From a virus (Duplodnaviria > Caudoviricetes): 39,134 nt of DNA. This document shows, one piece after another, positions 1 through 39,134 of this stretch; within the stretch, counting starts at the first letter, position 1; the number at the start of each line of letters is the position of its first letter. Location of the stretch: IMG/VR virus record IMGVR_UViG_3300049712_000015, positions 1 through 39,134 of that record, one strand, 5' to 3'. Both the position numbers and the translations under genes were made by a program. The notes beneath the pieces were generated by a model that was given only the letters and a program-made list of their open reading frames with translations, was not told the DNA's origin and did not search any database.

Positions 1-153
1 GTCAATTCAAGGTTCGTTCTTTATGCTTACTCGTGAGAAATACTGGGAATTAAACATTTCCGATGAAGCTTTTGGCTCATGGGGTTCTCAAGGAATTGAG
101 GTAGCCTGTAAGTTCTGGTTATCAGGTGGGCGTGTTATAATTAACCATAACAC
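1..153 (+). repeat. Direct terminal repeat / circular assembly overlap (copy 1)
   Basis: 1-153 is identical to 38982-39134 except T127 vs C39108 (synonymous GGT/GGC). Confidence 0.97.
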
Positions 154-391
154 ATGGTATGCACACATGTTTCGGACTCAAGGCGGTGACTTCGGGTTTC
201 CCTACGAACAGAAGCAATCTAAGGTAAACGCAGCGAAATCTAAAGCAAGAGATTTGTTTTTTAATAATAAATGGGACAAACAAACACGGCCTCTCTCATG
301 GCTTGTGGAAAGGTTTGCTCCGGTAAAGGGTTGGAGCGACAACGAAATACTAGAACTAAAAATAAATGAATCTAAGTCTTGGAATAAATAG
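2..391 (+). CDS. C-terminal part of GT-A glycosyltransferase (GT2/GT27 ppGalNAc-T-like) that starts at 38395 and crosses the circular join
   Basis: In frame with 38395 across the repeat. SIQGSFFMLTREKYWELNISDEAFGSWGSQGIEVACKFWLSGGRVIINHNTWYAHMFR resembles the Gal/GalNAc-T motif (GGLFAI.R.YF..LG.YD....WGGEN.E.S...W.CGG........VGH.FR). Confidence 0.85.
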   Translation, partial: SIQGSFFMLTREKYWELNISDEAFGSWGSQGIEVACKFWLSGGRVIINHNTWYAHMFRTQGGDFGFPYEQKQSKVNAAKSKARDLFFNNKWDKQTRPLSWLVERFAPVKGWSDNEILELKINESKSWNK

Positions 392-839
392 AACGGCTAG
401 CTCTCCATTGTCTACGCCACTGATTGCGTTTTTGGGAAGCATCAAGTATCTGTCTGCACTTTCGGCAGCGCCTTCTTCCCCCCACTTGATAAAGAGAATC
501 ATGTCCATGAATGCACTTTGTTTTTTTGGAATTAAGGGCGCTAACACTCTTACCTCTAAGGACATTTTCTCTGTTCGACACGAGTTTGAGGTGTTTTGGA
601 TTAACACAAGAGCGATTGTCACACAAGTGGTCAATTTCTTTAGACATCTTGTTTACCCATTTTTCTATGAGTCCGTATTTCCACTCATAGAACAGTCTAT
701 GAGCTTTATAGCGATGACCTCTCCAGTATATTCGCCCGTATCCATCGCTAAGATAGCCACTCGTCCAATTCCAGCATTTTGTAACTGGGTCAATCTTGAC
801 GTGTTTGAAAATTCTATCTCTTTCCTTCTTAGAAAACAT
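372..839 (-). CDS. HNH homing endonuclease (HNH_3-like)
   Basis: CWNWT..DGYGRI..AHRLFYE..IDHLCDNRSCVNPKHL..N motif plus KTKCIHGH..CRKC tail. It lies opposite to the flanking genes. Confidence 0.9.
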   Translation of the reverse strand: MFSKKERDRIFKHVKIDPVTKCWNWTSGYLSDGYGRIYWRGHRYKAHRLFYEWKYGLIEKWVNKMSKEIDHLCDNRSCVNPKHLKLVSNRENVLRGKSVSALNSKKTKCIHGHDSLYQVGGRRRCRKCRQILDASQKRNQWRRQWRASRSIYSKT

Positions 840-916: not shown

Positions 917-2464
917 ATGGCAACGTACGCAACGTGGAATCCCTCGGATAAGAACGGTGGTTTAACCCTAAGTAACGGGAATCTTACCGTAACTCATGCT
1001 GACCCTGCTAACTGGAGAGCACTCAGGTCTACAATTTCAAAGACAAGTGGTAAGTGGTATTGGGAACATACAGTCAATAGCGACACAGGGACTAGGGAAT
1101 TTTCCTTCGGTGTTGGTACTTCTGGTCAGTCTATAGCCGATGGTCAAAAATGGGGCTATAGCAATGTTGCTTGGGGATATACTAACCCTGATGCACTTAA
1201 ACCAACAGGCCCTGGCAAGTTCATAACTAATTCCGTAGAAAGCGGAACACCTGCTTTCTTTACCACGGGAGATGTTATTGGTGTGGCGTTAGACATGGAT
1301 GGTGGTACGGTAACCTGGTACAAGAATAATGTATCACAAGGGACGGGTGGCTATACTGGAATATCTGGTACAATTTTTGCTGGAGCGGCTATATACGGTA
1401 ATACAAATAACTTTACCTCAAACTTCGGAGCCACAGCCCTAACCTACACACCACCCACAGGTTATAATGCTGGTCTATTTACAGTCGTGAGTTCAGAGTC
1501 ATCGTCTGTATCGTCTTCCCCTTCTAGTAGCCCCAGTTCCAGCGTTTCCAGTTCCCCTAGCTCGAGTATTTCAAATTCCCCGTCTCGAAGTATCAGCTCG
1601 AGTGTCTCCAGCTCTCCCTCGTCCTCGGTCAGCCCTTCTTCGTCCATTAGCAGCTCCCCGTCAAGCTCCCCTAGCTCAAGTGTTTCAAGTTCCCCGAGTT
1701 CTAGCGTCTCGTCTTCAATTTCTAGTAGTCCTAGCTCGAGTATTTCGAGCTCCCCCTCAAGAAGTGTCAGCTCGTCAATTTCGTCCTCCCCGTCAATTAG
1801 CGTTAGCTCCTCAATTTCTTCTAGTCCCTCGAGCAGTGTTTCTCCTTCAAGTAGTATTAGCTCTTCAGTTTCTAGCAGTCCATCTTCTTCTGTTTCTAGT
1901 AGCCCGTCTTCTTCAGCCAGCAGTTCAATTTCTAATAGCCCTAGCTCATCAATCTCGAGTAGTCCTTCTCGCTCTATCAGTAGTTCGGTTTCTAGCAGCG
2001 TCTCCTCATCAGTTTCGAGTTCCCCTAGCTCCAGCGAGTCGGCTTCACCTTCTGTCGGATACAAAGACTACACACGCTTTCATTATGCAGCTTTGCCCGC
2101 TACTGACGCAGATTTAACAACCGCTTATACAGCTCAAGACGTTATAGACGTTACAACAGACGATGGAGTTTACGTAGACCAGATAGCGGATAACCAATAC
2201 GCTATTCATCAGTTTAAAAACTATTCTAGTCCGAGTAACTCGGCCTCTTTCAGGTGGAATGGAAAAACAAACATCCCGTGTTCAACCTCAGAAGTATTCC
2301 TACAAATTTACAATCGAAACACGACAACATGGGAGACATTAGATAGCGACACTACTACCGCAACAGGTACAGATTTTGATTTGACTGCTAGTGTAGCCGA
2401 CTTAACTAATTACAAGGATGGCAATAGTGTCTTGTCGTGTCGGGTATATCAATTAGCACAATAG
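917..2464 (+). CDS. Putative virion protein: N-terminal SPRY/ConA-like domain, Ser-rich mucin-like tract, C-terminal beta-rich domain
   Basis: TWNPSDK..LSNGNLT..GKWYWE..GDVIGVALDMD is SPRY-like, followed by about 188 aa of SSS[PIV] repeats. Confidence 0.75.
   Translation: MATYATWNPSDKNGGLTLSNGNLTVTHADPANWRALRSTISKTSGKWYWEHTVNSDTGTREFSFGVGTSGQSIADGQKWGYSNVAWGYTNPDALKPTGPGKFITNSVESGTPAFFTTGDVIGVALDMDGGTVTWYKNNVSQGTGGYTGISGTIFAGAAIYGNTNNFTSNFGATALTYTPPTGYNAGLFTVVSSESSSVSSSPSSSPSSSVSSSPSSSISNSPSRSISSSVSSSPSSSVSPSSSISSSPSSSPSSSVSSSPSSSVSSSISSSPSSSISSSPSRSVSSSISSSPSISVSSSISSSPSSSVSPSSSISSSVSSSPSSSVSSSPSSSASSSISNSPSSSISSSPSRSISSSVSSSVSSSVSSSPSSSESASPSVGYKDYTRFHYAALPATDADLTTAYTAQDVIDVTTDDGVYVDQIADNQYAIHQFKNYSSPSNSASFRWNGKTNIPCSTSEVFLQIYNRNTTTWETLDSDTTTATGTDFDLTASVADLTNYKDGNSVLSCRVYQLAQ
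1490..2053 (+). repeat. Coding Ser-rich tetrapeptide repeat (SSSP/SSSI/SSSV)
   Basis: Visible in the translation; synonymous Ser codons are highly mixed. Confidence 0.95.
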
Positions 2465-2465
2465 T

Positions 2466-3944
2466 ATGGCGACAAAACTCTACCTAGAATCATCAGGCAC
2501 GCCACCAATCTCGCCAACACCGAATGCGGGTTGGACTGACCAGACGCAATTTACTCGTTTCATAGCCAATACTGCAAAGGCTAGTTCGACTATGACTACG
2601 AAGAACACCACTTCGGCCATTTCAACACAGTCAGATATCATCGTGGGACAATTCATTTCTCACCCACTGGATGTTGGGCAGACAATTACTGGAGCGCAAA
2701 CCATCAGCATTTTCGTACGCTACGCAGAAACAAACGCTGGTAACAACCTATTTCTAACCTGGGCCGTATACGTCTTTAATGGCACGACTTTACAAAAAAC
2801 CCTGGTCACTAAAAGAACAGACGGAGCGGAACAAACTTCGGCTACGTTAACCAGTGTAACGGGTGCGCCCGCTTCTGTTGCGGGTAACTACACCACTGTA
2901 GCAGGTGACCGTATCGTAATTGAGGCGGGTCTTTCGGGTGACCCGACTGGTTCGGCTACTCATGCTGGTTCGATGAGTTTTGGTTCAGATAGTGCGACAG
3001 ATATAACAGCTGGTGGTTCAACAACAGCAAACAACCCAAATGTCATTTTAGCGACAGACACGTTGACCTTTAACACTTCCTCGCCCTCATCGAGTGTTTC
3101 GTCTTCCATTTCAAATTCTCCCTCATCTTCTATTTCCAGCTCTCCTAGTTCTTCAGTTAGCAGTTCCGTCTCGAGCTCCCCCTCTCGTTCAATTAGTAGT
3201 TCGGTTTCGAGTTCCCCTAGCGTGAGCGTCAGTTCGAGTATTTCGAGCTCCCCCTCCAGCTCTATCAGCCCCTCAAGCTCAATTAGTTCCTCGGTTTCCA
3301 ATTCGCCCTCCTCAAGTGTTAGTAACTCTCCAAGTTCAAGTCCTAGTTCCAGTATTTCTTCTAGCCCATCGAGAAGCATTAGTTCCAGTATCTCAAGTTC
3401 TATCTCCAGTTCGGTTTCGAGTAGTATAAGTTCAAGCCCCAGCTCGAGTCCTAGTGTTGTTGAGGTAAATCTCCAAACAGATTTATGGAGCGTATCTTTT
3501 GTATCCTCAGCTTCTTCATCTATCTCAAGCTCGCCAAGTAGCAGCCCTTCATCCTCTGTTTCTTCCAGCCCCTCAAGCAGTGTCTCGAGTTCAGTTAGTC
3601 CTTCATCCTCTATATCCTCCTCTATTTCCAGCTCACCTTCTAGCAGTATTTCTTCTAGTATTTCTTCTAGCCCATCTTCAAGCGTTAGTTCGAGTCCTAG
3701 CTCGAGTGTATCGCCTTCTAGCAGCGTAAGTTCTAGTGTATCTAGCTCAGTCTCACCTTCGGCAAGCCCTAGTGAAGAAATTGAAACAACCCCACAAGCT
3801 GGTAAACCTAAGACAAGTTTAAGACGGTCTTATGCTGTTTTGTGGAGGCATAACGGAAGTAAATGGGTCAGGACGGTTCTTAGGTGGAAAGGTAAAATTA
3901 TTAGATTAAAGGTCTTTCTCGATATTTGGAGGGAGATTGAATAA
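2466..3944 (+). CDS. Putative virion protein with beta-rich N-terminal domain and two Ser-rich mucin-like tracts
   Basis: 492 aa ORF starting 1 nt after the previous stop; about 200 aa T/G/S-rich domain, then SSS[PIV] repeats and a basic C-terminal tail. Confidence 0.7.
   Translation: MATKLYLESSGTPPISPTPNAGWTDQTQFTRFIANTAKASSTMTTKNTTSAISTQSDIIVGQFISHPLDVGQTITGAQTISIFVRYAETNAGNNLFLTWAVYVFNGTTLQKTLVTKRTDGAEQTSATLTSVTGAPASVAGNYTTVAGDRIVIEAGLSGDPTGSATHAGSMSFGSDSATDITAGGSTTANNPNVILATDTLTFNTSSPSSSVSSSISNSPSSSISSSPSSSVSSSVSSSPSRSISSSVSSSPSVSVSSSISSSPSSSISPSSSISSSVSNSPSSSVSNSPSSSPSSSISSSPSRSISSSISSSISSSVSSSISSSPSSSPSVVEVNLQTDLWSVSFVSSASSSISSSPSSSPSSSVSSSPSSSVSSSVSPSSSISSSISSSPSSSISSSISSSPSSSVSSSPSSSVSPSSSVSSSVSSSVSPSASPSEEIETTPQAGKPKTSLRRSYAVLWRHNGSKWVRTVLRWKGKIIRLKVFLDIWREIE
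3078..3773 (+). repeat. Coding Ser-rich tetrapeptide repeat in two blocks split by VVEVNLQTDLWSVSFV
   Basis: Visible in the translation. Confidence 0.95.
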
Positions 3945-20776: not shown

Positions 20777-21847
20777 ATGAGAGCATATTACATAAATTCG
20801 GGTCATGCAGGCTGTTACCTTGTGAGGTGTTTGTTACCGCTTGTTGCTAACGGATGGGATGGTGACCAGACTTCTATTACTCCCGTAAACAAGACTCAGG
20901 AGAATAAAAAGAATGCCGCTCTAGCCTCTGAGGTTGTAGTTTTCCATAGAGCTGAAGACCCTAAGAGGTTGGAGTTAGCTAGGTTGCTTAAACAAACAGG
21001 TAAGAAGATAGTCTTTGATAACGATGATACCTACAAAGACAATTCGACAGTTAAGTTAAACAAATTTATTACTGAGGAAAGAGTTAAGCGTGGTATGGAG
21101 TCTATAAACAAGTACGTAGATGCCTTTGTCATGGAAGCAGACTTGGTTACCTGTTCTACTGAGTTCCTAGCCGAAGAATACAGAAAGCTAAACCCTAACG
21201 TAGTTGTCCTACCTAACTGTGTAGACCCATTTTATTTTGAGGAACCTCTAAGAAATGAAACTGATGTAGTCCGAATCGGTGTCACAGGTTCGATTGGTGT
21301 GTCCTCGGACATAGATATATTAGCCCCTATAATTAATCACTTTGAAAAAGACAAACGCGTTAAGATTGTGTACTTTTGCCTGCCTTCTAATCGTTACGAT
21401 AAGTTGGTTGGGGAGACTTACACCGATGAGTATAAGTTTCTCGATAGCATTGACGTTGAGTGGCATCCTTACGTTGATATTGATAAGTATTATGACAAAC
21501 TCAACTCTCTAAAGCTCGACATGATGATTATTCCGAGAGCAGATAATTACTTCAATCGTTGCAAGTCTAACTTGAAGTTTCTAGAGGCCTCGATGTTTGA
21601 GATTCCATGTATTGCTCAGGGTTTCCCAGATGGTAAAAGTCCATACCAAGCAAACCCAGAGGATTCGAAGTATATGGTAATCGTGAACGATAACAAAGAT
21701 TGGATACCTGAGATTGAGAAAATGATTGCCGATAAAGAAGGTCGAAGAGCTATGGGCAAGAAGGCAAAGGAGTATGTCCTAGAGAATTACGACATTGAAA
21801 AGAACGCTCATAAATGGGTTGACGCATATAGCAAATTAATTGTATAA
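20777..21847 (+). CDS. GT-B glycosyltransferase (GT4-like)
   Basis: IVFDNDD, ADLVTCST..LA, VLPNCVD, FNRCKSNLKFLEASM..IP.IA and RRAMG..A..YV...Y motifs. Confidence 0.88.
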   Translation: MRAYYINSGHAGCYLVRCLLPLVANGWDGDQTSITPVNKTQENKKNAALASEVVVFHRAEDPKRLELARLLKQTGKKIVFDNDDTYKDNSTVKLNKFITEERVKRGMESINKYVDAFVMEADLVTCSTEFLAEEYRKLNPNVVVLPNCVDPFYFEEPLRNETDVVRIGVTGSIGVSSDIDILAPIINHFEKDKRVKIVYFCLPSNRYDKLVGETYTDEYKFLDSIDVEWHPYVDIDKYYDKLNSLKLDMMIIPRADNYFNRCKSNLKFLEASMFEIPCIAQGFPDGKSPYQANPEDSKYMVIVNDNKDWIPEIEKMIADKEGRRAMGKKAKEYVLENYDIEKNAHKWVDAYSKLIV

Positions 21848-21857
21848 TATTAAGGAA

Positions 21858-22280
21858 ATGAAGACAGTTCTCCTGCAAGGTGCGTTTGACATCATCAACT
21901 ATGGGCATGTCCGTGCTATCAAACGTGCCAAGTCGTTAGGTGATTATCTAATCATCGCCCTAAATACTGACAAGCTTCTACGTCAGTACAAGAAGCGAGA
22001 GCCTGTCCTTCCCTGGAAACAGAAGAAGGTCATACTCGAAGCTATCAAGTGGGTTGATAAGGTCGTGCCAGCGCATAATTTTTCACCTCTGTCGCTTCTC
22101 AAGAAGCACAAAGTAGATGTCTACGTCTTAACCAAAGAATGGGAAAGTTCCAAATCGGTTGAGATGGATTACATGAAAAAGAAGGGTGGGAAAGTCTCTT
22201 TCTCTCCTCGTTATGCGGGTGTCGTTTGCACTTCGGAAATCAAACGCAGATTACTAAAAGAAGCTCAAGAGGGGGTTTAG
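21858..22280 (+). CDS. Cytidylyltransferase (glycerol-3-phosphate CTase/TagD-like)
   Basis: GAFDIINYGH (HxGH variant), LIIALNTD, IKWVDKV and PRYAGVVCTSEIK. Confidence 0.85.
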   Translation: MKTVLLQGAFDIINYGHVRAIKRAKSLGDYLIIALNTDKLLRQYKKREPVLPWKQKKVILEAIKWVDKVVPAHNFSPLSLLKKHKVDVYVLTKEWESSKSVEMDYMKKKGGKVSFSPRYAGVVCTSEIKRRLLKEAQEGV

Positions 22281-22296
22281 CCTTCTCTTTTTATTT

Positions 22297-22845
22297 ATGG
22301 TTCCAATACACAAAATAACGGGGAGACTAGGTAATCAAATGTTCAACTACGCTTTCCTATTGAACTACGCTCGTACTCATGGCATATCTGACAGTTACTT
22401 CCCTCAACACTTAGAATGGTTCTCTGAGTCGGCTGATTTCATCAGAGCTTTATACTCACAGGACATAGGTAAGGTAGAAATGGTAGGTATACACGTAAGG
22501 CGTGATGACTACTTAGACCCTAATAGGATTCAGTACGTTCTACCCCTCGATTACTACAAAAAGGCTATGAGTTACTTTCCTAAAGCTAAGTTCGTAGTTT
22601 GCTCTGACGATATTGAGTGGGCCAAACACGAACCACTGTTCTACGGCTGTGAGTTTTCTGAAGGTAATGAGATAGAAGATATGAACCTTTTGGCTTCTTG
22701 TTCTGAGGGACTAATCATAGCCAACTCTACTTTCTCTTGGTGGTCGGCTTTCCTCAATCCCCACAAATGCACTATCATTGCTCCTGACAAATGGGACAAG
22801 GACGGCAAGGTTTTTAGTACACCGCACTCATGGATAACCATTTAA
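22297..22845 (+). CDS. Alpha-1,2-fucosyltransferase-like (GT11)
   Basis: GRLGNQMF, GIHVRRDDY, SDDIEW and IIANSTFSWWSAFL are GT11 motifs. Confidence 0.92.
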   Translation: MVPIHKITGRLGNQMFNYAFLLNYARTHGISDSYFPQHLEWFSESADFIRALYSQDIGKVEMVGIHVRRDDYLDPNRIQYVLPLDYYKKAMSYFPKAKFVVCSDDIEWAKHEPLFYGCEFSEGNEIEDMNLLASCSEGLIIANSTFSWWSAFLNPHKCTIIAPDKWDKDGKVFSTPHSWITI

Positions 22846-22847
22846 AA

Positions 22848-23195
22848 ATGAAAACTTCAGAAAAAACTCGTCAATATCATAAAGAGTGGCGTTCCAAGAA
22901 CCAAGATAGAATTAAAATATATATTTTACGGAAAAAGAATGAAATTCCCACATATAGTAGACGGGCAAAATTAAAAAGTAGATATGGAATGTCTGTAGAA
23001 GATTTAACTAGAATGACTGCGGAACAAAACAAACTATGTAAGATTTGTGGCAAGGAGAAAGAACTTGTTGTTGACCATGACCACAAGACAGGTAAGGTGA
23101 GAGGTTTATTATGTCGCTTATGCAATATCGGTCTTGGCTCACTTAACGATAACGTAGGAAACTTGGAGAACGCTATTAAATATCTAACAATATGA
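22848..23195 (+). CDS. Endonuclease VII-like homing endonuclease
   Basis: RYG.S..Q...CKICG..VDHDHKTGKVRGLLCRLCN.GLG. Confidence 0.92.
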   Translation: MKTSEKTRQYHKEWRSKNQDRIKIYILRKKNEIPTYSRRAKLKSRYGMSVEDLTRMTAEQNKLCKICGKEKELVVDHDHKTGKVRGLLCRLCNIGLGSLNDNVGNLENAIKYLTI

Positions 23196-23782
23196 AAGAA
23201 TCATACGCACAAGTCGGGGAAGATTTAGTTGTTGACCATTATTTGGGTGAGCCTACTGGTGGATATTATGTGGATATTGGAGCATACGAGCCAATGCATC
23301 TCTCTAACACTTATTTGTTCTACAAACGGGGCTGGAAAGGGGTTTGTGTAGAGCCAAATGCCCTTCTAGCTGGTGAATACAGGGAGACTAGACCAAAAGA
23401 CCAGTTCTATACTGAAGCTTGTGGTACGGGCGAATTGAAGTTCAAACTATCTGATGAGCATGATTCCCTATCAAAAGTATCCGATTCTGGTGTACCAATT
23501 AAGTCTCGACCACTATCCGAATACTTGGCTATGCTACCGAGAGTGGATTTGCTGTCAGTTGATTGTGAGGGAATGGAGTTGGAGATTCTGAAGTCTAACG
23601 ATTGGGGTACTTACCGTCCAACAATGGTTGTTGTTGAAGTGATTGATTACGTTACCAAGAAGAAGAATCAGTCAGTCATAGATTTCATGCTATTGCAGGG
23701 TTATGGATTAGTGTGTGATAATAGTATCAACGCAATTTTCCTTGAGCGGGGTAAGTTTAATGAGATTTTCTTAATAAAGTAA
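23192..23782 (+). CDS. FkbM-family methyltransferase
   Basis: SYAQVGED, YVDIGAYEP..SNT, GWKGVCVEPN and VDLLSVDCEG.E motifs. Confidence 0.9.
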   Translation: MKESYAQVGEDLVVDHYLGEPTGGYYVDIGAYEPMHLSNTYLFYKRGWKGVCVEPNALLAGEYRETRPKDQFYTEACGTGELKFKLSDEHDSLSKVSDSGVPIKSRPLSEYLAMLPRVDLLSVDCEGMELEILKSNDWGTYRPTMVVVEVIDYVTKKKNQSVIDFMLLQGYGLVCDNSINAIFLERGKFNEIFLIK

Positions 23783-23794
23783 CTTTGTTGCAGA

Positions 23795-24583
23795 GTGAAA
23801 AAGATATATATAACATTTAGTGGTGCGGCTTACGACATAACAACTCAAAAGATTGTCGAGGATGCTCCTAAGTATGGTGCTGACGAGGTTTGGGTCTATG
23901 ACGATAAGTGGATAGTTGAGCAGGATTTCTATAAACAGAATAAGTGGCTTTGGGAACATCCACATAAACGTGGTTTTGGTTGGTATGTTTGGAAACCTTA
24001 TATAATTTGGGATGCCCTCTCTAAACTAGAAGATGACGACATGGTTTTATTCACAGACGCTGACTGTATTCCTATAGATGATTTTACGGTTCTTTATGAT
24101 ATTTGCGCTCGCACTGGAGGCATCATGCTTTTCACTGCTCAAGGACACAGGCATTACAAATGGTGTAAGCGAGATTGCTTTATAACTATGGGGCAAGACG
24201 AGGAGAAGTACAGGCAAACGCAGGCTGGCGTAGCTCGATTCATGGTATTCCAAAAAGGACACTGGAGAACAACCCAATTTCTAATGGAATGGTTGACCTA
24301 TTGCGTCAATCCAAAGTCTACGACCTTTGACCCTTCGACCATCCTTCCCGAGCATGAGGGATTCATAGAGCATCGAACTGAACAGGCAATAATGACGAAC
24401 CTTGCTCACAAGTACGGAATTAAATTATGGAGAGAAGCCTGTGATGCAGGTCAGTATACGGTTGCCGATGGTTCACACAACAATGATAGAGATTATTACG
24501 GCCAGTTATTCCAGCAAATCAACCCTCACAAGGAAAAAGTTACTGCTGATATTGGCGAGGGTAGCAAATACCGCAATGTTTAA
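23795..24583 (+). CDS. Putative GT-A glycosyltransferase of unclassified family
   Basis: G.GWYVWKPYII, LFTDAD (DxD) and EHRTEQAI motifs, in a glycosylation cluster. Confidence 0.6.
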   Translation: MKKIYITFSGAAYDITTQKIVEDAPKYGADEVWVYDDKWIVEQDFYKQNKWLWEHPHKRGFGWYVWKPYIIWDALSKLEDDDMVLFTDADCIPIDDFTVLYDICARTGGIMLFTAQGHRHYKWCKRDCFITMGQDEEKYRQTQAGVARFMVFQKGHWRTTQFLMEWLTYCVNPKSTTFDPSTILPEHEGFIEHRTEQAIMTNLAHKYGIKLWREACDAGQYTVADGSHNNDRDYYGQLFQQINPHKEKVTADIGEGSKYRNV

Positions 24584-25379
24584 CTACATAATAAATATCT
24601 ACAACTCTGAAGCGCATCTCTCTTATGTTCTACAAGGGATTAAGAACGTTAAAAGTGCTGACAGCAAAGTTTACTGCGTGATAGATGGTTGCACCGATAG
24701 AAGCGAGGAGATTGTAGACGAGTTTGGTTTCAATAAGATTCACACACCAAATGTTAGAGAGACAAAAGCCATTACAACTGCTTTAGAACAAGTCCCAAAG
24801 GCTGATTATTATTTAATTCTACAAGACGACGTTATCTTGCAAGACCCAGATACCGAAGAACACATAAAAGAAGTTTACAGACAGATTCCAAATATTGGAG
24901 TATTAGGATTTAGACACGGAGCTAACCTTGAACCCGATGCTTTAACTAACGGTAAGCATGTTTCTGAACTTGATTTAATACAAAATGAATTTCAGCCACC
25001 CCTGGACAGAGTACCGCCTCTTAGTGAAGGCAATGTAATAGAAAGGCAGATAGTTTATAAATCTCCTATTTGTATCTCTGGTGAAGTCGTATCTAAGTTA
25101 GGTGGATACGATTCTCGATTTGAGCCAATAGCCCATGATGATACTGAATACTGCATACGTGCGATTCAGGAAGGCTATAGAAACTATGTCTGTGCTTTAA
25201 AGGTAATGCAACCTAAACAATGGGGAGGAAGCAGGAGATTCTCTAAGGCGCATGATGAGATAAATGTTAAGTGTCATCAGGAACACATGAATTTATTAAG
25301 AGAGTTATACCCTACGACCATTGCCACTTTAGGAACTAAATTACCAGCCTTACCACAACAAATATGGAAGAACTGGTAG
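24576..25379 (+). CDS. GT2 glycosyltransferase
   Basis: Start MFNYIINIYNSE at 24576; IDGCTDRS, ILQDD and LGGYD..F...DDTEYCIRA. Confidence 0.88.
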   Translation: MFNYIINIYNSEAHLSYVLQGIKNVKSADSKVYCVIDGCTDRSEEIVDEFGFNKIHTPNVRETKAITTALEQVPKADYYLILQDDVILQDPDTEEHIKEVYRQIPNIGVLGFRHGANLEPDALTNGKHVSELDLIQNEFQPPLDRVPPLSEGNVIERQIVYKSPICISGEVVSKLGGYDSRFEPIAHDDTEYCIRAIQEGYRNYVCALKVMQPKQWGGSRRFSKAHDEINVKCHQEHMNLLRELYPTTIATLGTKLPALPQQIWKNW

Positions 25380-26014
25380 ATTTATACATAGGTAAAGAGA
25401 ACGTCAAAATCATATTTGAGGCTGGAGCTTGTGATTGTGAGGACAGCCTTAAACTAGCCTATGACTATCCCAACTCCCATGTCTATGCCTTTGAATGCAA
25501 CCCAGAGACTCTGACAATATGTAAAGGTAAATTAAAGGACATGATTACTTTGACTGAAAAGGCAGTATCAGACGTAAATGGTGAAGTTACTTTCTATCCA
25601 ATAGATACTAAAAGGACAATTACCAGCCATACGAATGGCAACCCAGGCGCATCTTCTATGTTCAAGGCTTCTGGTCTTTATCCGATTGAGACTTATGTGC
25701 AGAACGAAATAAAAGTACCTTCTATAACCTTAAAGACCTTTTGTGAAGAGAGGCATATAGACGAAATTGACCTACTTTGGCTAGATGCTCAGGGAGCAGA
25801 GTTAAAGATTCTCAAAGGCTTGGGAGAGGCGATTAGCAACGTCAAGATAATAAAGACTGAAGTAGAGTTCAAACCTCAGTATACGGATGCGCCATTATTC
25901 GAGGAAGTGTTGGAGTTCTTAGAGTCTAAAGGGTTTAGATTCGCAAAGTTTCTAGGAAATGTAGATTCAGAGTCATGGTTTGACGATGCAATATTTATAA
26001 ATACAAAGTTATGA
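25364..26014 (+). CDS. FkbM-family methyltransferase
   Basis: IFEAGA, VYAFECNP, GASS, IDLLWLDAQGAELKIL.G and TEV motifs. Confidence 0.9.
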   Translation: MEELVDLYIGKENVKIIFEAGACDCEDSLKLAYDYPNSHVYAFECNPETLTICKGKLKDMITLTEKAVSDVNGEVTFYPIDTKRTITSHTNGNPGASSMFKASGLYPIETYVQNEIKVPSITLKTFCEERHIDEIDLLWLDAQGAELKILKGLGEAISNVKIIKTEVEFKPQYTDAPLFEEVLEFLESKGFRFAKFLGNVDSESWFDDAIFINTKL

Positions 26015-26685
26015 AAAAAGTTTCCGTAATAATTCCATGTTTTAAGTACGCACACTTCCTGAAGGATTGTGTTAATAGCGTTAAAAGACAAACCTATGAA
26101 AATATTGAAATCATTGTGGTATCTGATGGTTCTCCAGACGATACTGTCGCTGTTTGTAAGGAACTTGGAGTAACTTGTCTTGAAAAAGAAAATGGCGGTC
26201 TTTCGTCAGCAAGGAATTACGGTATCAAACATTGCACTGGGGACTATGTGACGTGCCTAGACGCAGACGACATGATTACTCCAGGAGCTATAGAGGAACA
26301 CGTTAAATTGATGGACGATGATTACACGATAGCTCAGTGTTCTCTTATGCAATTTGGTACGAGACATAATATTCATATTCCACAAGGAGCTGACTATGAA
26401 AGACTCCTCTACGGCAACACTGTATTTTGCAATGCCATGTTTTCTAAGAAAGCTTGGGCAGAGTCTCGGTGTGGTTTTGATGAACACAAAACTATGAGAC
26501 TAGGGTTAGAAGATTATTTATTCTGGTTGGATTTAACAAAGGTCTGCAAGGTCAATACTTCAGATTTTATAGCATTAAGATATAGACAACATGACAACAA
26601 CATGACAAGTAAAACTACGCACCCAAATTGGCCAGTGATTCTCGCTTACATGCGGGAAATTCACCCATTATTAAAAGCTAAATAA
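26011..26685 (+). CDS. GT2 glycosyltransferase
   Basis: VSVIIPC, EIIVVSDGSPD, NGGLSSARN.G, LDADD and EDY.FW motifs. Confidence 0.93.
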   Translation: MKKVSVIIPCFKYAHFLKDCVNSVKRQTYENIEIIVVSDGSPDDTVAVCKELGVTCLEKENGGLSSARNYGIKHCTGDYVTCLDADDMITPGAIEEHVKLMDDDYTIAQCSLMQFGTRHNIHIPQGADYERLLYGNTVFCNAMFSKKAWAESRCGFDEHKTMRLGLEDYLFWLDLTKVCKVNTSDFIALRYRQHDNNMTSKTTHPNWPVILAYMREIHPLLKAK

Positions 26686-35637: not shown

Positions 35638-36420
35638 ATGCTTAGTTGTATCATTCCTAGTTATAAAGACCCTCTTTTACAAAAGACGATTGATTCTCTA
35701 TTGGAAAATGCTGAAGGAGAGATTGAGATTATTGCCGTCCTCGATGGCTATTGGCCGACAGTTCCCTTGAAAAATGACAAGCGTTTAAAGATACTACACT
35801 TAGGTAAAAATCGTGGCATGAGGGAAGCCATAAACGCTGGTATTTTAATGTCTACGGGAGAATGGATTATGCGTATGGACGAACATCAGATAGTTGGTAA
35901 GGGTTACGACAAAGTTCTAACTAGAGACTGTAGCGACAACATGGTTATGACCCTACGTAGGTATTTTTTAGATGTAGTGAAGTGGGAAGTTATGGACATA
36001 CCACCCGTGGACTCTTCTAAGTTAGTTATCGCAGGAGAGCCGAAGAAATTTGCTGGCTCTGAGTGGAAAAGTCATGCTGAAAAGAACAAAGACGTAATGA
36101 TTTACGAAACAATGGCTATGCAAGGCAGTATGTGGTGCATGAAAAGAAGTCATTGGGACGAAGTCATTGGTAAACTTCAAACAGAAGGTTATGGCCCATT
36201 GATACAAGACTCACATGAGATAGTTTTCAAAACTTGGAAGAACGGAGGCAGATTGATGGTGAACAAAAATTCTTGGCACGCTCATAAGCATAGGGACTTT
36301 CCTAGAACCCATAACAACGGCACTCCTGAAAATCCTGCTAAATGTAATGACGGTTATGCCTACGCTTTATCTGTTTGGGGTGACTACTATAAAGAAATAA
36401 AAGAAAAATGGGGGATTTAA
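35638..36420 (+). CDS. GT-A glycosyltransferase (GT2/GT27-like), paralogue of 38395
   Basis: SCIIPS, EIIAVLDG, GMREAIN.G, MDEH (DxH), MQGS.W and W..GGR.MVN...WHAH motifs. Confidence 0.85.
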   Translation: MLSCIIPSYKDPLLQKTIDSLLENAEGEIEIIAVLDGYWPTVPLKNDKRLKILHLGKNRGMREAINAGILMSTGEWIMRMDEHQIVGKGYDKVLTRDCSDNMVMTLRRYFLDVVKWEVMDIPPVDSSKLVIAGEPKKFAGSEWKSHAEKNKDVMIYETMAMQGSMWCMKRSHWDEVIGKLQTEGYGPLIQDSHEIVFKTWKNGGRLMVNKNSWHAHKHRDFPRTHNNGTPENPAKCNDGYAYALSVWGDYYKEIKEKWGI

Positions 36421-37097
36421 CAATCATAATGCTTACGAGCAATAAAGTGCCAGATGGCTGGGCAAAGTTTCATAAGGAGGAACTTTTAAAGGCGGCTGGT
36501 AAGTACCCTATTATTTCTATATCTCGTAAGCCTATAGACCTCGGTACGAACTACATTGACCAAGAACCGATGTCTTTCTCCAATCTATACGCTTTAATCT
36601 TACGGGGCGCAAAACTCGCCACAACGCCATTTATCGCCCTTGTGGAAGACGATACCCTCTATACCCCAGAACATTTCAACTCATTCCGCCCGCCAACGGA
36701 CTCTTTTGGATACAACATGAATAGATGGTCACTTTTCACTTGGGGCGAAGCAATATACTCAAGAAAGGACAACAAGGTCGGAGCAGCCATGATTGCTCCG
36801 AGACTTCTGACTATCGAAGCTCTTGAAGAACGCTTCGCAAAACACCCGACACTTCCACCTGTAAATTGCGGAGAGCTTGGAACTGGCGGTGAGAAAGAGC
36901 TTGGTGTATCGGAGAGAAAGTCTTGCAGATTTAATTCAAAATACCCCATTGTTCAATTCAATCACGACTTCTTTTCCACTATAGATAACTCTGAAGCCAA
37001 CGTAGCTCGAAGACACAAAAAGAAATTAGGAGACGTTCAAGCATACGATATTCCTTACTGGAGAACAGCCGAAGATTTAGTTAAGAAATTCTCATGA
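36408..37097 (+). CDS. Putative GT-A glycosyltransferase, paralogue of 37094
   Basis: GAKLATTPFIALVEDDTLY (DxD-like), FNHD and AYDIPYW motifs. Confidence 0.65.
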   Translation: MGDLTIIMLTSNKVPDGWAKFHKEELLKAAGKYPIISISRKPIDLGTNYIDQEPMSFSNLYALILRGAKLATTPFIALVEDDTLYTPEHFNSFRPPTDSFGYNMNRWSLFTWGEAIYSRKDNKVGAAMIAPRLLTIEALEERFAKHPTLPPVNCGELGTGGEKELGVSERKSCRFNSKYPIVQFNHDFFSTIDNSEANVARRHKKKLGDVQAYDIPYWRTAEDLVKKFS

Positions 37098-37780
37098 ATA
37101 CCACGGTAATATTTCTCACGCAAAATAACCTTCCCAAACAATGGACTTCATATCACAGGGGAGTTCTTTTGGAAGCTGTGGGGGATTTACCGCTCATCAC
37201 CGTTTCCCGCAAGCCCTTAGACTTTGGACTAAACATCATTCAGACAGAACCTAAAAGCCCATCGAATATCTACTGGCAGATACTTAAGGCGGCAAAGATT
37301 GCCACGACTAAATTTATTGCTATAGCTGAAGATGACACGCTATACCACAAAGACCATTTCAATTTCAAACTAGACGATGGAGCTGTCGGCTACAACATGA
37401 CCCACTGGTCTTTATTCACTTGGATAGACAAGCACCACAAAGAGCCGACATATTCCTGGCGCAATAGGAGGGGTAATTATTCAATGAAAGGCGATAGAGA
37501 GGTAATTATAAAAGCGTTGGAGGAGAGATTTGCCAAGTGGCCAGACGGTACGCCTGATAAAACAACTGGTGAAATAGGGAGGCCGATGGTGGAAAGGAAT
37601 TTAGGAGTGAGTCATGTAGAAGCGGTGGAGTTCTACACTTCGATTGCTGTGGTGAATTTCAATCACGACTACGCAATGGATGACTTACAAATAAGACATC
37701 AGAAAGGTATGGGAGGACTGCGGGCGTACGACATCCCTTATTGGGGTAGGGCGAAGGATTTAGTAACTAATTTTAAATAA
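37094..37780 (+). CDS. Putative GT-A glycosyltransferase, paralogue of 36408
   Basis: AAKIATTKFIAIAEDDTLY, GYNM.HWSLFTW, FNHD and AYDIPYW motifs. Confidence 0.65.
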   Translation: MNTTVIFLTQNNLPKQWTSYHRGVLLEAVGDLPLITVSRKPLDFGLNIIQTEPKSPSNIYWQILKAAKIATTKFIAIAEDDTLYHKDHFNFKLDDGAVGYNMTHWSLFTWIDKHHKEPTYSWRNRRGNYSMKGDREVIIKALEERFAKWPDGTPDKTTGEIGRPMVERNLGVSHVEAVEFYTSIAVVNFNHDYAMDDLQIRHQKGMGGLRAYDIPYWGRAKDLVTNFK

Positions 37781-38398
37781 ATGAAAATTAAAGACGCACT
37801 AAAAGAAAAGGGAACTCCATATGAAATACCAGATTGTAACCGAGAGGATTTGCCAGCTTTCTTTAAAGAAATGGGATATAAGGTAGGTGTCGAAATTGGT
37901 ACGGCTAAGGGTGTATACGCAGAGATTATCTGTAAGGCAGGGCTAAAACTCTACGCCATAGACCCCTGGATTGATTACGCTGACTATCGAAGTACTAAGG
38001 TTAGTGAGTGGCAGAAGGAACTCGACCATCAGTATCAACAGACGGTTGACCGTTTGAAACCCTATGACTGCACGATTATAAGGAAAACTTCTATGGAGGC
38101 CCTCAATGATTTCGCTGATGAGTCACTAGATTTTGTCTACATAGACGGTAATCATGAATTTAAATACGTTGTAGAGGATATTCACGAATGGTCAAAGAAA
38201 GTCCGCAAAGGAGGCTGTATCTCAGGTCACGATTATCTCTACACCATGCCTCGTGCCTGGGACAGAATACACGTCAAAGATGTCCTTCCAGCCTATACAA
38301 AAGCCTACGGGATAAAGCCGTGGTTTGTAGTTGGTAGAAAAGACAAAGTCCCAGGGGAAAAGAGAGATGGTTTTAGAAGCTGGTTTTGGCTCAAATGA
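37781..38398 (+). CDS. Class I SAM methyltransferase (Methyltransf_24-like)
   Basis: GVEIGT..G, LYAIDPW, LDFVYIDGNH.F..V..D and GG.ISGHDY motifs. Confidence 0.9.
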   Translation: MKIKDALKEKGTPYEIPDCNREDLPAFFKEMGYKVGVEIGTAKGVYAEIICKAGLKLYAIDPWIDYADYRSTKVSEWQKELDHQYQQTVDRLKPYDCTIIRKTSMEALNDFADESLDFVYIDGNHEFKYVVEDIHEWSKKVRKGGCISGHDYLYTMPRAWDRIHVKDVLPAYTKAYGIKPWFVVGRKDKVPGEKRDGFRSWFWLK

Positions 38399-39134
38399 AA
38401 GACATATCAATCCTCATACCCGCCAGAAATGAGATGTTTCTAGCAGGGACAATAGAACAGCTACTAAAGTATTCTGAAAGTGACTTTGAAATTATCGTTG
38501 TACTGGACGGTCAATGGGCTGAACCTGCTATACCTCAACATGAACGTGTGAACGTTGTGTACTTACCAGAAAGTATAGGGCAGAGAGCTGGGACAAATTT
38601 GGCATGTCGTTTGGCACAAGGTAAGTATGTAGTTAAAACAGATGCACACTGTATGTTTGAGAAGGGCTGGGATAGAAAAATGTTGGAAGGTTTTAAAGTA
38701 ACTGGAGATAACGTTGTAGCCGTGCCGACCATGAGGAACTTGTGGATGTTTGATTGGAAATGTTACTCCTGCGGTTGGAAAAAGTATCAAGGGCCAACAC
38801 CAGATAAGTGTGCCGAGTGTGGAAGTACCAATGTAAAACGAAAAATGATGTGGGTAGGGAAGGAAAGGCCACAAAGTAATTCTTACTGTTTCGACTCAGA
38901 GCCGCATTTTCAATACTTCAACGAATATTGTAAAAGACCAGAATATTTGGAGCAACTAAAAACAGGGCTAACCGAGTCCATGTCAATTCAAGGTTCGTTC
39001 TTTATGCTTACTCGTGAGAAATACTGGGAATTAAACATTTCCGATGAAGCTTTTGGCTCATGGGGTTCTCAAGGAATTGAGGTAGCCTGTAAGTTCTGGT
39101 TATCAGGCGGGCGTGTTATAATTAACCATAACAC
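38395..39134 (+). CDS. GT-A glycosyltransferase (GT2/GT27 ppGalNAc-T-like) with zinc-ribbon insert; continues to 391 (325 aa in total)
   Basis: Not in the ORF track because it runs off the end. MKDISILIPARNE..EIIVVLDG..GQRAGTN..KTDAHC (DxH at 38641), CYSC..CAEC, then the Gal/GalNAc-T-like motif. Confidence 0.87.
   Translation, partial: MKDISILIPARNEMFLAGTIEQLLKYSESDFEIIVVLDGQWAEPAIPQHERVNVVYLPESIGQRAGTNLACRLAQGKYVVKTDAHCMFEKGWDRKMLEGFKVTGDNVVAVPTMRNLWMFDWKCYSCGWKKYQGPTPDKCAECGSTNVKRKMMWVGKERPQSNSYCFDSEPHFQYFNEYCKRPEYLEQLKTGLTESMSIQGSFFMLTREKYWELNISDEAFGSWGSQGIEVACKFWLSGGRVIINHN
38982..39134 (+). repeat. Direct terminal repeat / circular assembly overlap (copy 2)
   Basis: Matches 1-153 with one mismatch. 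Confidence 0.97.

What the first reader, a model, noticed from the sequence alone, without database searches (positions are those of the whole stretch)
35638..39134. Candidate phage-encoded mucin-type O-glycosylation system: GT27-like enzymes directly upstream of Ser-rich virion proteins
Seen: across the circular join the gene order is GT, GT, GT, methyltransferase, GT (38395-391), an inserted HNH, then two proteins with long SSS[P/I/V] tracts (917-3944). The 38395-391 enzyme has DAHC and QGSFFMLTREKYWELNISDEAFGSWGSQGIEVACKFWLSGG..AHMFR. The 35638 paralogue has DEH and the same MQGS..W..GGR..HAH spacing. Established: a DxH motif plus WGGEN.E.S...W.CGG...GH.FR characterises the polypeptide GalNAc-transferases (GT27) that start mucin O-glycans on Ser/Thr near Pro. 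Bacterial serine-rich-repeat adhesins are instead primed by GT-B GtfA/B. Inference: the phage primes hundreds of Ser sites on its own fibres in the host cytoplasm, then extends and O-methylates them, making bottle-brush stalks. Enzymes and likely substrates sit in one locus.
Basis: partly seen in the sequence, partly recalled or inferred. Interest (0 to 1): 0.93.

Follow-up and report, generated by a model that had tools for sequence, protein, structure and literature searches.

The report
Phage mucin-type glycosyltransferase pair, serine fibres
An uncultured phage carries two enzymes predicted to fold like the animal enzymes that start mucin sugar chains, beside two proteins with serine at every second position; the pairing recurs in many uncultured phages and ultra-small bacteria, so the enzymes likely sugar-coat these probable virion fibres.

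Summary
Observation confirmed: the genome is circular and the 325-aa enzyme spans the join. Its model matches polypeptide GalNAc-transferases best (Z 27.0; other GT-A folds 18.5 or less), as does the 35638 paralogue. DxH and the C-terminal His are invariant, but WGGEN reads WG[S/N/Q]QG and lectin and membrane anchor are absent: a GT27/GT60-clade relative, not GT27. (Ser-X)n genes accompany the enzyme in 69 of 80 phage loci; 0 of 44 capsid/terminase relatives have the enzyme, and none showed a Ser-Pro tract. In 400 Patescibacteria genomes each trait occurs in 5, with 4 shared (p 2e-8). The two paralogues are predicted to dimerise (0.88, best control 0.21). Best reading (0.6): cytoplasmic O-glycosylation of serine stalks of virion fibres, then extension and methylation. 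Activity, donor sugar, virion location and host are untested; one complete phage has such fibres without these enzymes. The scan found this system before on other DNA; I found no paper on it.

The parts
35638..36420 (+). GT-B: DxH GT-A enzyme of the GT27/GT60 clade, 260 aa, paralogue and predicted binding partner of the 325-aa enzyme (my label GT-B means second paralogue, not GT-B fold)
   Evidence: profile A3 vs PDB: top four hits GalNAc-Ts, E 2e-13; D81, H83, H216 in 144 of 144; 25% identity to the 325-aa enzyme, E 6e-23; complex score 0.88 vs control 0.21
36408..37097 (+). GT-A-fold protein without DxH (EDD), 229 aa; likely extending glycosyltransferase
   Evidence: no Pfam hit; Atlas structure hits to GT2 clusters TM 0.68-0.70; best-hit homologues in 37 of 80 phage loci; role inferred
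37094..37780 (+). paralogue of 36408, 228 aa; likely extending glycosyltransferase
   Evidence: 44% identity, E 1e-59; best-hit homologues in 16 of 80 loci
37781..38398 (+). SAM methyltransferase (Methyltransf_24), 205 aa; likely glycan O-methyltransferase
   Evidence: PF13578 E 1e-16; homologues in 60 of 80 loci; only a weak PDB hit, 6g7d E 0.03; substrate inferred
38395..39134 (+). GT-A (first paralogue), 5' part: 325-aa DxH enzyme with GalNAc-T-like fold and a four-Cys zinc-ribbon-like insertion (residues 123-142); continues across the circular join
   Evidence: zinc ribbon only a sub-threshold Pfam hit
1..391 (+). 3' part of the same 325-aa enzyme (positions 1-153 repeat the window end)
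372..839 (-). inserted HNH endonuclease gene, not part of the system
   Evidence: PF13392 E 4e-10
917..2464 (+). Ser-repeat protein 1, 515 aa: SPRY head, 190-aa (Ser-X)n stalk (1487-2056), conserved 133-aa C-terminal beta-sandwich; probable virion fibre
   Evidence: SPRY E 9e-11; phrog_19943 'virion structural protein' E 3e-18; no hydrophobic signal or membrane segment
2466..3944 (+). Ser-repeat protein 2, 492 aa: unassigned 200-aa head, two (Ser-X)n tracts (3075-3458, 3501-3779), short Trp/basic C-terminal tail; probable virion fibre
   Evidence: no Pfam or PHROG hit; no signal or membrane segment

Best explanation
The phage encodes two soluble DxH glycosyltransferases that are predicted to fold like polypeptide GalNAc-transferases and predicted to pair as a dimer, and they likely attach a first sugar to the serines of the (Ser-X)n stalks of the two neighbouring proteins, which are probably virion fibres. 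Shown: gene order, motifs, repeat structure, absence of signal or membrane segments, and reciprocal co-occurrence with controls. Predicted: fold and dimer. Inferred: priming happens in the host cytoplasm from a nucleotide sugar (probably a UDP-HexNAc, identity open); the two DxH-less GT-A proteins extend the glycan and the methyltransferase caps it; about 290 serines in the tracts become a stiff, shielded stalk that holds a variable lectin-like head away from the particle. The cassette is an accessory module exchanged among unrelated phages and some Patescibacteria cells, the likely hosts.
For: Fold: model pLDDT 92; all 32 listed Foldseek rows within the top 50 are GalNAc-Ts; VIA Z 27.0, rmsd 2.6 over 269 residues to GalNAc-T1 and 25.1 to Toxoplasma T3, next 18.5. 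D83, H85, W223, G224, H251 in 153 of 153 orthologues. Forward: 69 of 80 phage loci have a strict (Ser-X)12 tract; 10 of the 11 without have 2.3 kb or less downstream; of 42 loci with 3 kb or more downstream, 37 have such a gene downstream, 22 within 200 nt. Controls: enzyme in 0 of 32 terminase and 0 of 12 capsid relatives (positive control 5 of 5), no Ser-Pro tract seen in them. Reverse: 40 of 63 records picked by a Ser-Pro DNA pattern have the enzyme, 16 of 19 near-complete ones; two of the three misses (one phage) carry divergent DxH GalNAc-T-like genes. Patescibacteria sample of 400: 5 with the enzyme, 5 with the pattern, 4 shared, Fisher p 2.4e-8; both discordant genomes have the missing half on closer look. 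Second paralogue upstream in 47 of 53 phage and 44 of 56 cellular loci with full flank; both types fused in one chain in P0245; complex score 0.88, best of 3 controls 0.21, runs agree in 100% of contacts, partner pLDDT 91 or more; that mark was reached by 116 of 157 solved complexes and 2 of 215 mismatched pairs. About 1 of 158 Ser-repeat proteins shows a signal-peptide-like start (8 flagged as hydrophobic, 7 judged by eye to be beta-rich mature sequence). Heads hit LamG, F5/8, Gly-rich and tail or virion PHROGs in part. Variants of a related strain in the enzyme are 7 of 7 synonymous. GT27 and GT60 share DxH and polypeptide Ser/Thr O-glycosylation (PMC7185993, passages).
Against: No activity, glycan or virion proteome has been measured. 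The WGGEN motif is changed (Q for E in 152 of 153, G for N in 153 of 153), and those residues contact the donor sugar in GalNAc-Ts (recalled). G067, a 100%-complete phage, has three (Ser-X)n ORFs but no DxH GalNAc-T-like gene, only other GT-A-like genes, and L038 has the enzyme with 5.4 kb downstream and no tract. 23 of 63 reverse records lacked a hit (mostly fragments). The reverse pattern was learned from enzyme-positive loci, several loci are near-duplicates, and only 15 of 44 control records are 90% complete. Virion assignment is indirect: 23 of 30 Ser-repeat proteins had no PHROG hit, and the C-terminal domain's best matches are weak (Z 7.2 to a baseplate protein; E 3e-4 or worse). Cellular copies lack signal peptides too and have no virion to join, which the model does not explain. 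The dimer interface is a symmetric edge-strand pairing, so it may be a homodimer surface shared by both paralogues or recalled from solved GT-A dimers; homodimers were not tested.
Confidence: 0.6

Rival explanations
1. The Ser tracts are glycosylated, but the DxH pair extends rather than primes; priming is done by the DxH-less GT-A proteins, by the capsid-adjacent GT4-like enzyme (20777) or by a host enzyme.
For: G067 has Ser-repeat fibres with other GT-A-like genes and no DxH enzyme; WGGEN is altered; the GT27/GT60 clade also holds glycan-extending GT7 and chondroitin polymerases (PMC7185993, passages); bacterial serine-rich repeats are primed by GtfA/GtfB (PMC7661464, passages).
Against: DxH is a mark of the two peptide-priming families; the pair is the most constant part of the cassette (80, 61, 60, 37 and 16 of 80 loci for the five genes, the first by construction); the GT4-like gene follows the capsid gene in 29 of 31 relative loci, while none of the 12 such records read in full has Ser-Pro tracts.
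Confidence: 0.15
2. The module is a host-surface conversion cassette: the glycosylated Ser-repeat proteins are displayed by or released from the infected cell and are not virion parts.
For: The same cassette sits among housekeeping genes in Patescibacteria chromosomes, often next to TatC; close capsid relatives build particles without it.
Against: No signal or membrane segments; no integrase hit among the window proteins scanned; the genes lie on the structural-gene strand between the tail-region genes and the holin; heads match virion and tail PHROGs in some cases.
Confidence: 0.15
3. The enzymes glycosylate phage DNA (hypermodification) or a host polysaccharide, and the Ser-repeat genes are only neighbours.
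For: Phage glycosyltransferases are known to modify DNA and host serotype (PMC12619734, passages); Pfam calls both enzymes GT2.
Against: No base-hydroxylating or nucleotide-modifying gene among the window proteins scanned; fold is far closer to GalNAc-Ts than to any polysaccharide synthase; reciprocal co-occurrence in phages and in cells.
Confidence: 0.05

Closest known systems
Polypeptide GalNAc-transferases (CAZy GT27; mouse GalNAc-T1 8v9q/1xhb, human T2)
   Same: GT-A fold with Z 27, DxH, C-terminal metal His, W-G-x-x-x-x-E...W..GG segment, H-x-F-R and the following loop.
   Different: No ricin lectin, no membrane anchor, WG[S/N/Q]QG for WGGEN, four-Cys insertion, about 19% identity; cytoplasmic; predicted paralogue pair; acceptor would be Thr-poor (Ser-X)n.
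GT60 polypeptide alpha-GlcNAc-transferases (Dictyostelium Gnt1, T. cruzi)
   Same: Lectin-free relatives of GT27 with DxH, some cytosolic, present in prokaryotes and protists (PMC8724618, PMC7185993, passages); phage proteins annotated 'Glycosyltransferase, GlcNAc' are among the next structural neighbours in BFVD.
   Different: No hit to the Pfam GlcNAc-transferase family at E 0.05 (that this family is GT60 is recalled); those BFVD proteins are 10-16% identical; no known link to (Ser-X)n fibres.
Serine-rich repeat glycoproteins of Gram-positive bacteria (GspB, Fap1, PsrP) with GtfA/GtfB
   Same: Head-on-stalk proteins with serine-rich repeats, glycosylated in the cytoplasm by a two-protein initiator plus variable accessory transferases on an island (PMC7661464, passages).
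   Different: No signal peptide, LPxTG, accessory Sec or GtfA/B seen; Pro at about 17% of tract positions; initiator candidates have a GT-A fold; carried by phages and Patescibacteria.
Mycobacteriophage Che8 virion glycosylation (Freeman et al. 2023; seen only through citing papers)
   Same: Phage-encoded transferases put O-linked glycans on virion proteins (PMC13445384, PMC11256854, PMC12619734, passages).
   Different: Che8 gp108-110 do not match this family (hhalign probability 15, 0.5 and 0.3%; gp109 has no DxH); its targets are capsid and tail-tube termini, not repeat stalks with hundreds of sites.

Membership tests
GT27 polypeptide GalNAc-transferases | GT-A catalytic fold closest to GalNAc-Ts | tested here: met
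   (Z 27.0, rmsd 2.6, 269 aligned); paralogue by profile
GT27 polypeptide GalNAc-transferases | DxH motif and C-terminal metal-binding His | tested here: met
   D83/H85/H251 in 153 of 153; D81/H83/H216 in 144 of 144; aligned to GalNAc-T1
GT27 polypeptide GalNAc-transferases | WGGEN(x)E motif | tested here: not met
   WG[S/N/Q]QG[I/V]E in the 325-aa family; mostly YG-x-x-x-Q[E/D]xxE in the paralogue
GT27 polypeptide GalNAc-transferases | C-terminal ricin-type lectin domain and membrane anchor | tested here: not met
   325 and 260 aa, no lectin Pfam hit, maximal hydropathy 0.83 and 0.75
GT27 polypeptide GalNAc-transferases | Transfers alpha-GalNAc from UDP-GalNAc to Ser/Thr | not testable with these tools
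   needs an assay
GT60 polypeptide GlcNAc-transferases | Lectin-free DxH enzyme of the GT27 clade | tested here: met
   definition from PMC8724618 and PMC7185993 passages
GT60 polypeptide GlcNAc-transferases | Match to the GT60 family profile | tested here: inconclusive
   no Pfam GlcNAc-transferase hit at E 0.05; structural neighbours so annotated at E 5e-12; no tree with GT60 or GT27 sequences could be built
Serine-rich repeat glycoproteins (SRRP) | Long serine-rich repeat stalk next to a binding head | tested here: met
Serine-rich repeat glycoproteins (SRRP) | Extended signal sequence and LPxTG wall anchor | tested here: not met
   no hydrophobic segment in either window protein; sequences
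Serine-rich repeat glycoproteins (SRRP) | GtfA/GtfB and accessory Sec genes in the locus | tested here: not met
   none among window proteins scanned or among the flank proteins scanned
Che8-type virion glycosylation | Homologues of Che8 gp108-110 | tested here: not met
   (compared with the 35638 family profile)
Che8-type virion glycosylation | Glycans on virion proteins | not testable with these tools
   uncultured phage; no match of the enzyme among 50,697 isolated phage records

The most novel reading that the evidence does not exclude
A large, undescribed prokaryotic and viral branch of the GT27/GT60 clade (497 clusters at 50% identity with E 1e-30 or better) works as a heterodimeric cytoplasmic protein O-glycosyltransferase, a GT-A-fold counterpart of GtfA/GtfB, that turns (Ser-X)n stalks into methyl-capped bottle-brush fibres on phage particles; Patescibacteria cells took the kit from their phages several times to build their own giant fibres.
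Probability: 0.35. Interest if true: 0.9.

Novelty: new variant of a known kind. Interest (0 to 1): 0.78.

Why it matters
Mucin-type initiation is known from eukaryotic GT27/GT60 enzymes, dense serine glycosylation in bacteria from GtfA/GtfB, and phage virion glycosylation from unrelated mycobacteriophage enzymes. If this locus works as inferred, it joins the three: phages would build densely glycosylated fibres with small soluble relatives of GalNAc-Ts. That bears on where mucin-type O-glycosylation came from, on how phages of ultra-small bacteria reach or avoid surfaces, and on glycoengineering, since a 260+325-aa cytoplasmic pair without lectin or membrane anchor could be expressed in laboratory E. 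coli. This genome holds a minimal version (five enzymes, two substrates, about 7.3 kb) that can be tested directly.

Tried and rejected
Assembly artefact at the join: rejected. DNA slippage as source of the tracts: rejected. Homology to Che8 transferases: not found. Isolated phages: no match for the 325-aa enzyme, one partial N-terminal match for the paralogue. Host from capsid homologue names: none given; the host remains inferred from 0 of 28 genes with a Shine-Dalgarno motif and from where the enzyme occurs in cells. Fold of the 133-aa C-terminal domain: beta-sandwich, no clear match. Methyltransferase substrate: only a weak PDB hit. The five pattern hits in the terminase controls: G015 gave no Ser-repeat ORF and G010 an 86-aa Ser-[Arg/Gly/Trp] ORF of another kind; G018, G026 and G028 (1-4 matches) were judged by eye only. 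No RNA holder listed. A first all-against-all clustering timed out and was repeated with faster settings. No tree with eukaryotic GT27 or GT60 sequences was possible because no tool returned them as sequences. Freeman et al. 2023 is not held. Literature searches listed no paper on this system; subscription papers and bioRxiv supplements were not visible.
Full report
Context. The window is a circular 38,981-bp tailed-phage genome: the ends overlap by 153 nt with one mismatch; terminase, major capsid, adaptor and holin genes are identifiable. The five enzyme genes (35638-391 across the join) and the two Ser-rich genes (917-3944) lie on the structural-gene strand between the tail-region genes and the lysis genes, interrupted only by an antisense HNH gene. 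A 13,905-nt contig of run X1 spans the join exactly, and the 325-aa product is in the protein database (P0001). The four runs laid are soil or rhizosphere metagenomes.

The enzymes. Pfam calls both DxH proteins GT2, but the closest solved relatives are polypeptide GalNAc-transferases by sequence (profile of the 35638 family E 2e-13; the single 35638 sequence found only two generic GT2s) and by structure: the AlphaFold model (pLDDT 92) gives only GalNAc-Ts in the 32 rows listed from Foldseek's top 50 and Z 27.0 and 25.1 to GalNAc-T1 and Toxoplasma T3 against 18.5 or less for every other GT-A protein. D83, H85, W223, G224 and H251 are invariant in 153 orthologues, D81, H83 and H216 in 144 paralogues; these correspond to Asp209, His211 and His344 of GALNT1 (PMC4202792, passages; alignment). 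The WGGEN motif reads WG[S/N/Q]QG, lectin and anchor are missing. DxH replaces DxD in GT27 and GT60, which share polypeptide Ser/Thr glycosylation, and GT60 lacks the lectin and occurs in prokaryotes and protists (PMC7185993, PMC8724618, passages). So these are relatives in the GT27/GT60 clade, members of neither by the tests available. The family is large: 2,723 proteins at E 0.001 and 497 clusters at 50% identity at E 1e-30, yet the 325-aa enzyme has no match in 50,697 isolated phage records. 36408 and 37094 are paralogous GT-A-fold proteins without DxH; 37781 is a Methyltransf_24 protein.

A pair. The second paralogue lies upstream in 47 of 53 phage and 44 of 56 cellular loci with a full flank, and domains of both types occur in one chain (P0245). 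The complex prediction scored 0.88 against a best control of 0.21, three runs agreeing in 100% of contacts, partner pLDDT 91 or more; that mark was reached by 116 of 157 solved complexes and 2 of 215 mismatched pairs, counts that hold only roughly with my alignments. The interface pairs the equivalent edge strands (48-59 with 46-57), so it may be a homodimer surface shared by both paralogues or a likeness to solved GT-A dimers. It supports binding and does not show it.

The putative substrates. Both proteins have a globular head, a stalk with Ser at every second position (94 of 95, 63 of 64, 45 of 46), and a C-terminal module. The three tracts hold 286 Ser and 1 Thr. In related loci the tracts are 53% Ser, 17-18% Pro and under 2% Thr and reach more than 2,000 residues. 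Heads vary (SPRY, LamG, F5/8, Gly-rich, DUF2341); 7 of 30 tested had PHROG hits, three of them to tail or virion families, and the window's SPRY head hits a virion structural family. The 133-aa C-terminal domain of protein 917 is conserved in the 13 homologues aligned and is a beta-sandwich with only weak matches to baseplate and fibre proteins. About 1 of 158 has a signal-peptide-like start. Virion location is therefore probable, not shown.

Co-occurrence. Forward: of the best 80 of 139 viral matches, 69 have a strict (Ser-X)12 tract; 10 of the other 11 end within 2.3 kb of the enzyme, L038 has 5.4 kb without a tract; 37 of 42 loci with 3 kb downstream have the gene there, 22 within 200 nt. 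Some loci are near-duplicates. Controls: of 80 terminase and 80 capsid relatives I kept the 32 and 12 further records of 23 kb or more; none has the enzyme (positive control 5 of 5). None showed a Ser-Pro tract; one has an 86-aa Ser-[Arg/Gly/Trp] ORF and three had 1-4 pattern matches that I judged by eye only; the same pattern finds 69 of 80 enzyme loci and 167 places in the window. Only 15 of the 44 are 90% complete. Two misses (G063, G099, one phage) carry divergent DxH genes, one with WGGEEQ and GalNAc-T hits. G067 is a true exception: complete, with Ser-repeat genes after its capsid gene and a different transferase cluster. The pattern was learned from enzyme-positive loci, which favours the result.

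Cells. The genome scan gave 109 matches, largely titled as Patescibacteria lineages, many others as uncultured Gammaproteobacteria (one of these is a 938-kb chromosome, so I suspect mislabelling; not tested); 51 of the best 80 have a tract. L326 and L364 show the cassette among housekeeping genes with TatC next door, and 78 of 134 flank representatives scanned gave MetRS, HtpX, UppS, CorA and TatC but no terminase, portal or capsid; a few loci look prophage-like (L334, L377). In 400 genomes drawn from the phylum, 5 have the enzyme and 5 the pattern, 4 both (p 2.4e-8); G478 has a tract at its contig end and G304 has two paralogue genes. In a tree of 148 orthologues the cellular ones fall in several clades nested among viral ones (14 label changes against 49.6 in shuffles; weak root, sampling centred on the window's protein): repeated exchange, direction suggestive only. 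No gene of 28 has a Shine-Dalgarno motif, which fits such a host (own knowledge).

Mechanism. Inferred: the DxH pair primes serines in the cytoplasm, the DxH-less proteins extend, the methyltransferase caps, and the stalk becomes a stiff shielded spacer. Donor identity is open. Rivals: extension only (0.15), host-surface display (0.15), DNA or polysaccharide modification (0.05; no base-modifying partner found).

Known systems and novelty. It works like an SRRP glycosylation island (PMC7661464, passages) run by GT27/GT60-like enzymes in a phage. Phage O-glycosylation of virions is known from Che8 (seen only in passages of citing papers: PMC12619734, PMC11256854, PMC10955285, PMC12582341, PMC13445384; the original is not held), whose three enzymes do not match this family. 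Ten literature searches (listings only) showed no description of it. The scan's own notes report the system in other genomes (look-alikes in 21 windows of 20 genomes; none for this genome); I saw them after my main tests and count them as no evidence. Verdict: real, new variant of known kinds, directly testable; interest 0.78.

Noticed in passing
window 20777-26685: A second, separate glycosylation cluster after the major capsid gene: GT4-like (phrog_7162), cytidylyltransferase-like, GT11, two FkbM methyltransferases, two GT2 and an unknown. The GT4-like gene follows the capsid gene in 29 of 31 capsid-relative loci, the rest is variable: possibly a lineage-wide capsid glycosylation system.
   Followed up: partly
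G099 (L495:83-9843) and G063: Phage with Ser-repeat fibres and four divergent DxH transferases, one with WGGEEQ, closer to the canonical GalNAc-T motif than the window's family.
   Followed up: partly
G067 (L491:10695-14722; L492:655-5437): Complete phage with Ser-repeat proteins after the capsid gene and a cluster of DxH-less transferases elsewhere: candidate for a different priming chemistry.
   Followed up: partly
L326:18898-19728, L364:16904-17638 and other cellular loci: TatC-like genes flank the cellular cassette (two families, 9 and 7 loci) although the giant Ser-repeat proteins show no signal peptide; their C-termini share an IPSW..GRP...G..GFN..T..LE...G..W motif. Export route unexplained.
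   Followed up: no
L015:1644-2423, L041:2004-2876, L059:527-1657, L066:2646-3383, L049:14104-15741: A second class of short proteins with a C-terminal Ser tail upstream of the cassette (near capsid genes in some loci), and tracts inserted into what looks like a tail protein: further possible substrates.
   Followed up: no
window 38395-39134, residues 123-142: Four-Cys zinc-ribbon-like insertion in the catalytic domain, with C123 and C139 invariant in 153 orthologues; absent from the 35638 paralogue; could shape acceptor binding.
   Followed up: no
L488:4963-5286 (G010): Small ORF with an 86-aa Ser-[Arg/Gly/Trp] alternating repeat in a phage without the cassette.
   Followed up: no
whole window: 0 of 28 genes have a Shine-Dalgarno motif; starts are A/T-rich. 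Several free-standing HNH-type endonuclease genes (372, 5599, 7390, 13131, 22830).
   Followed up: no
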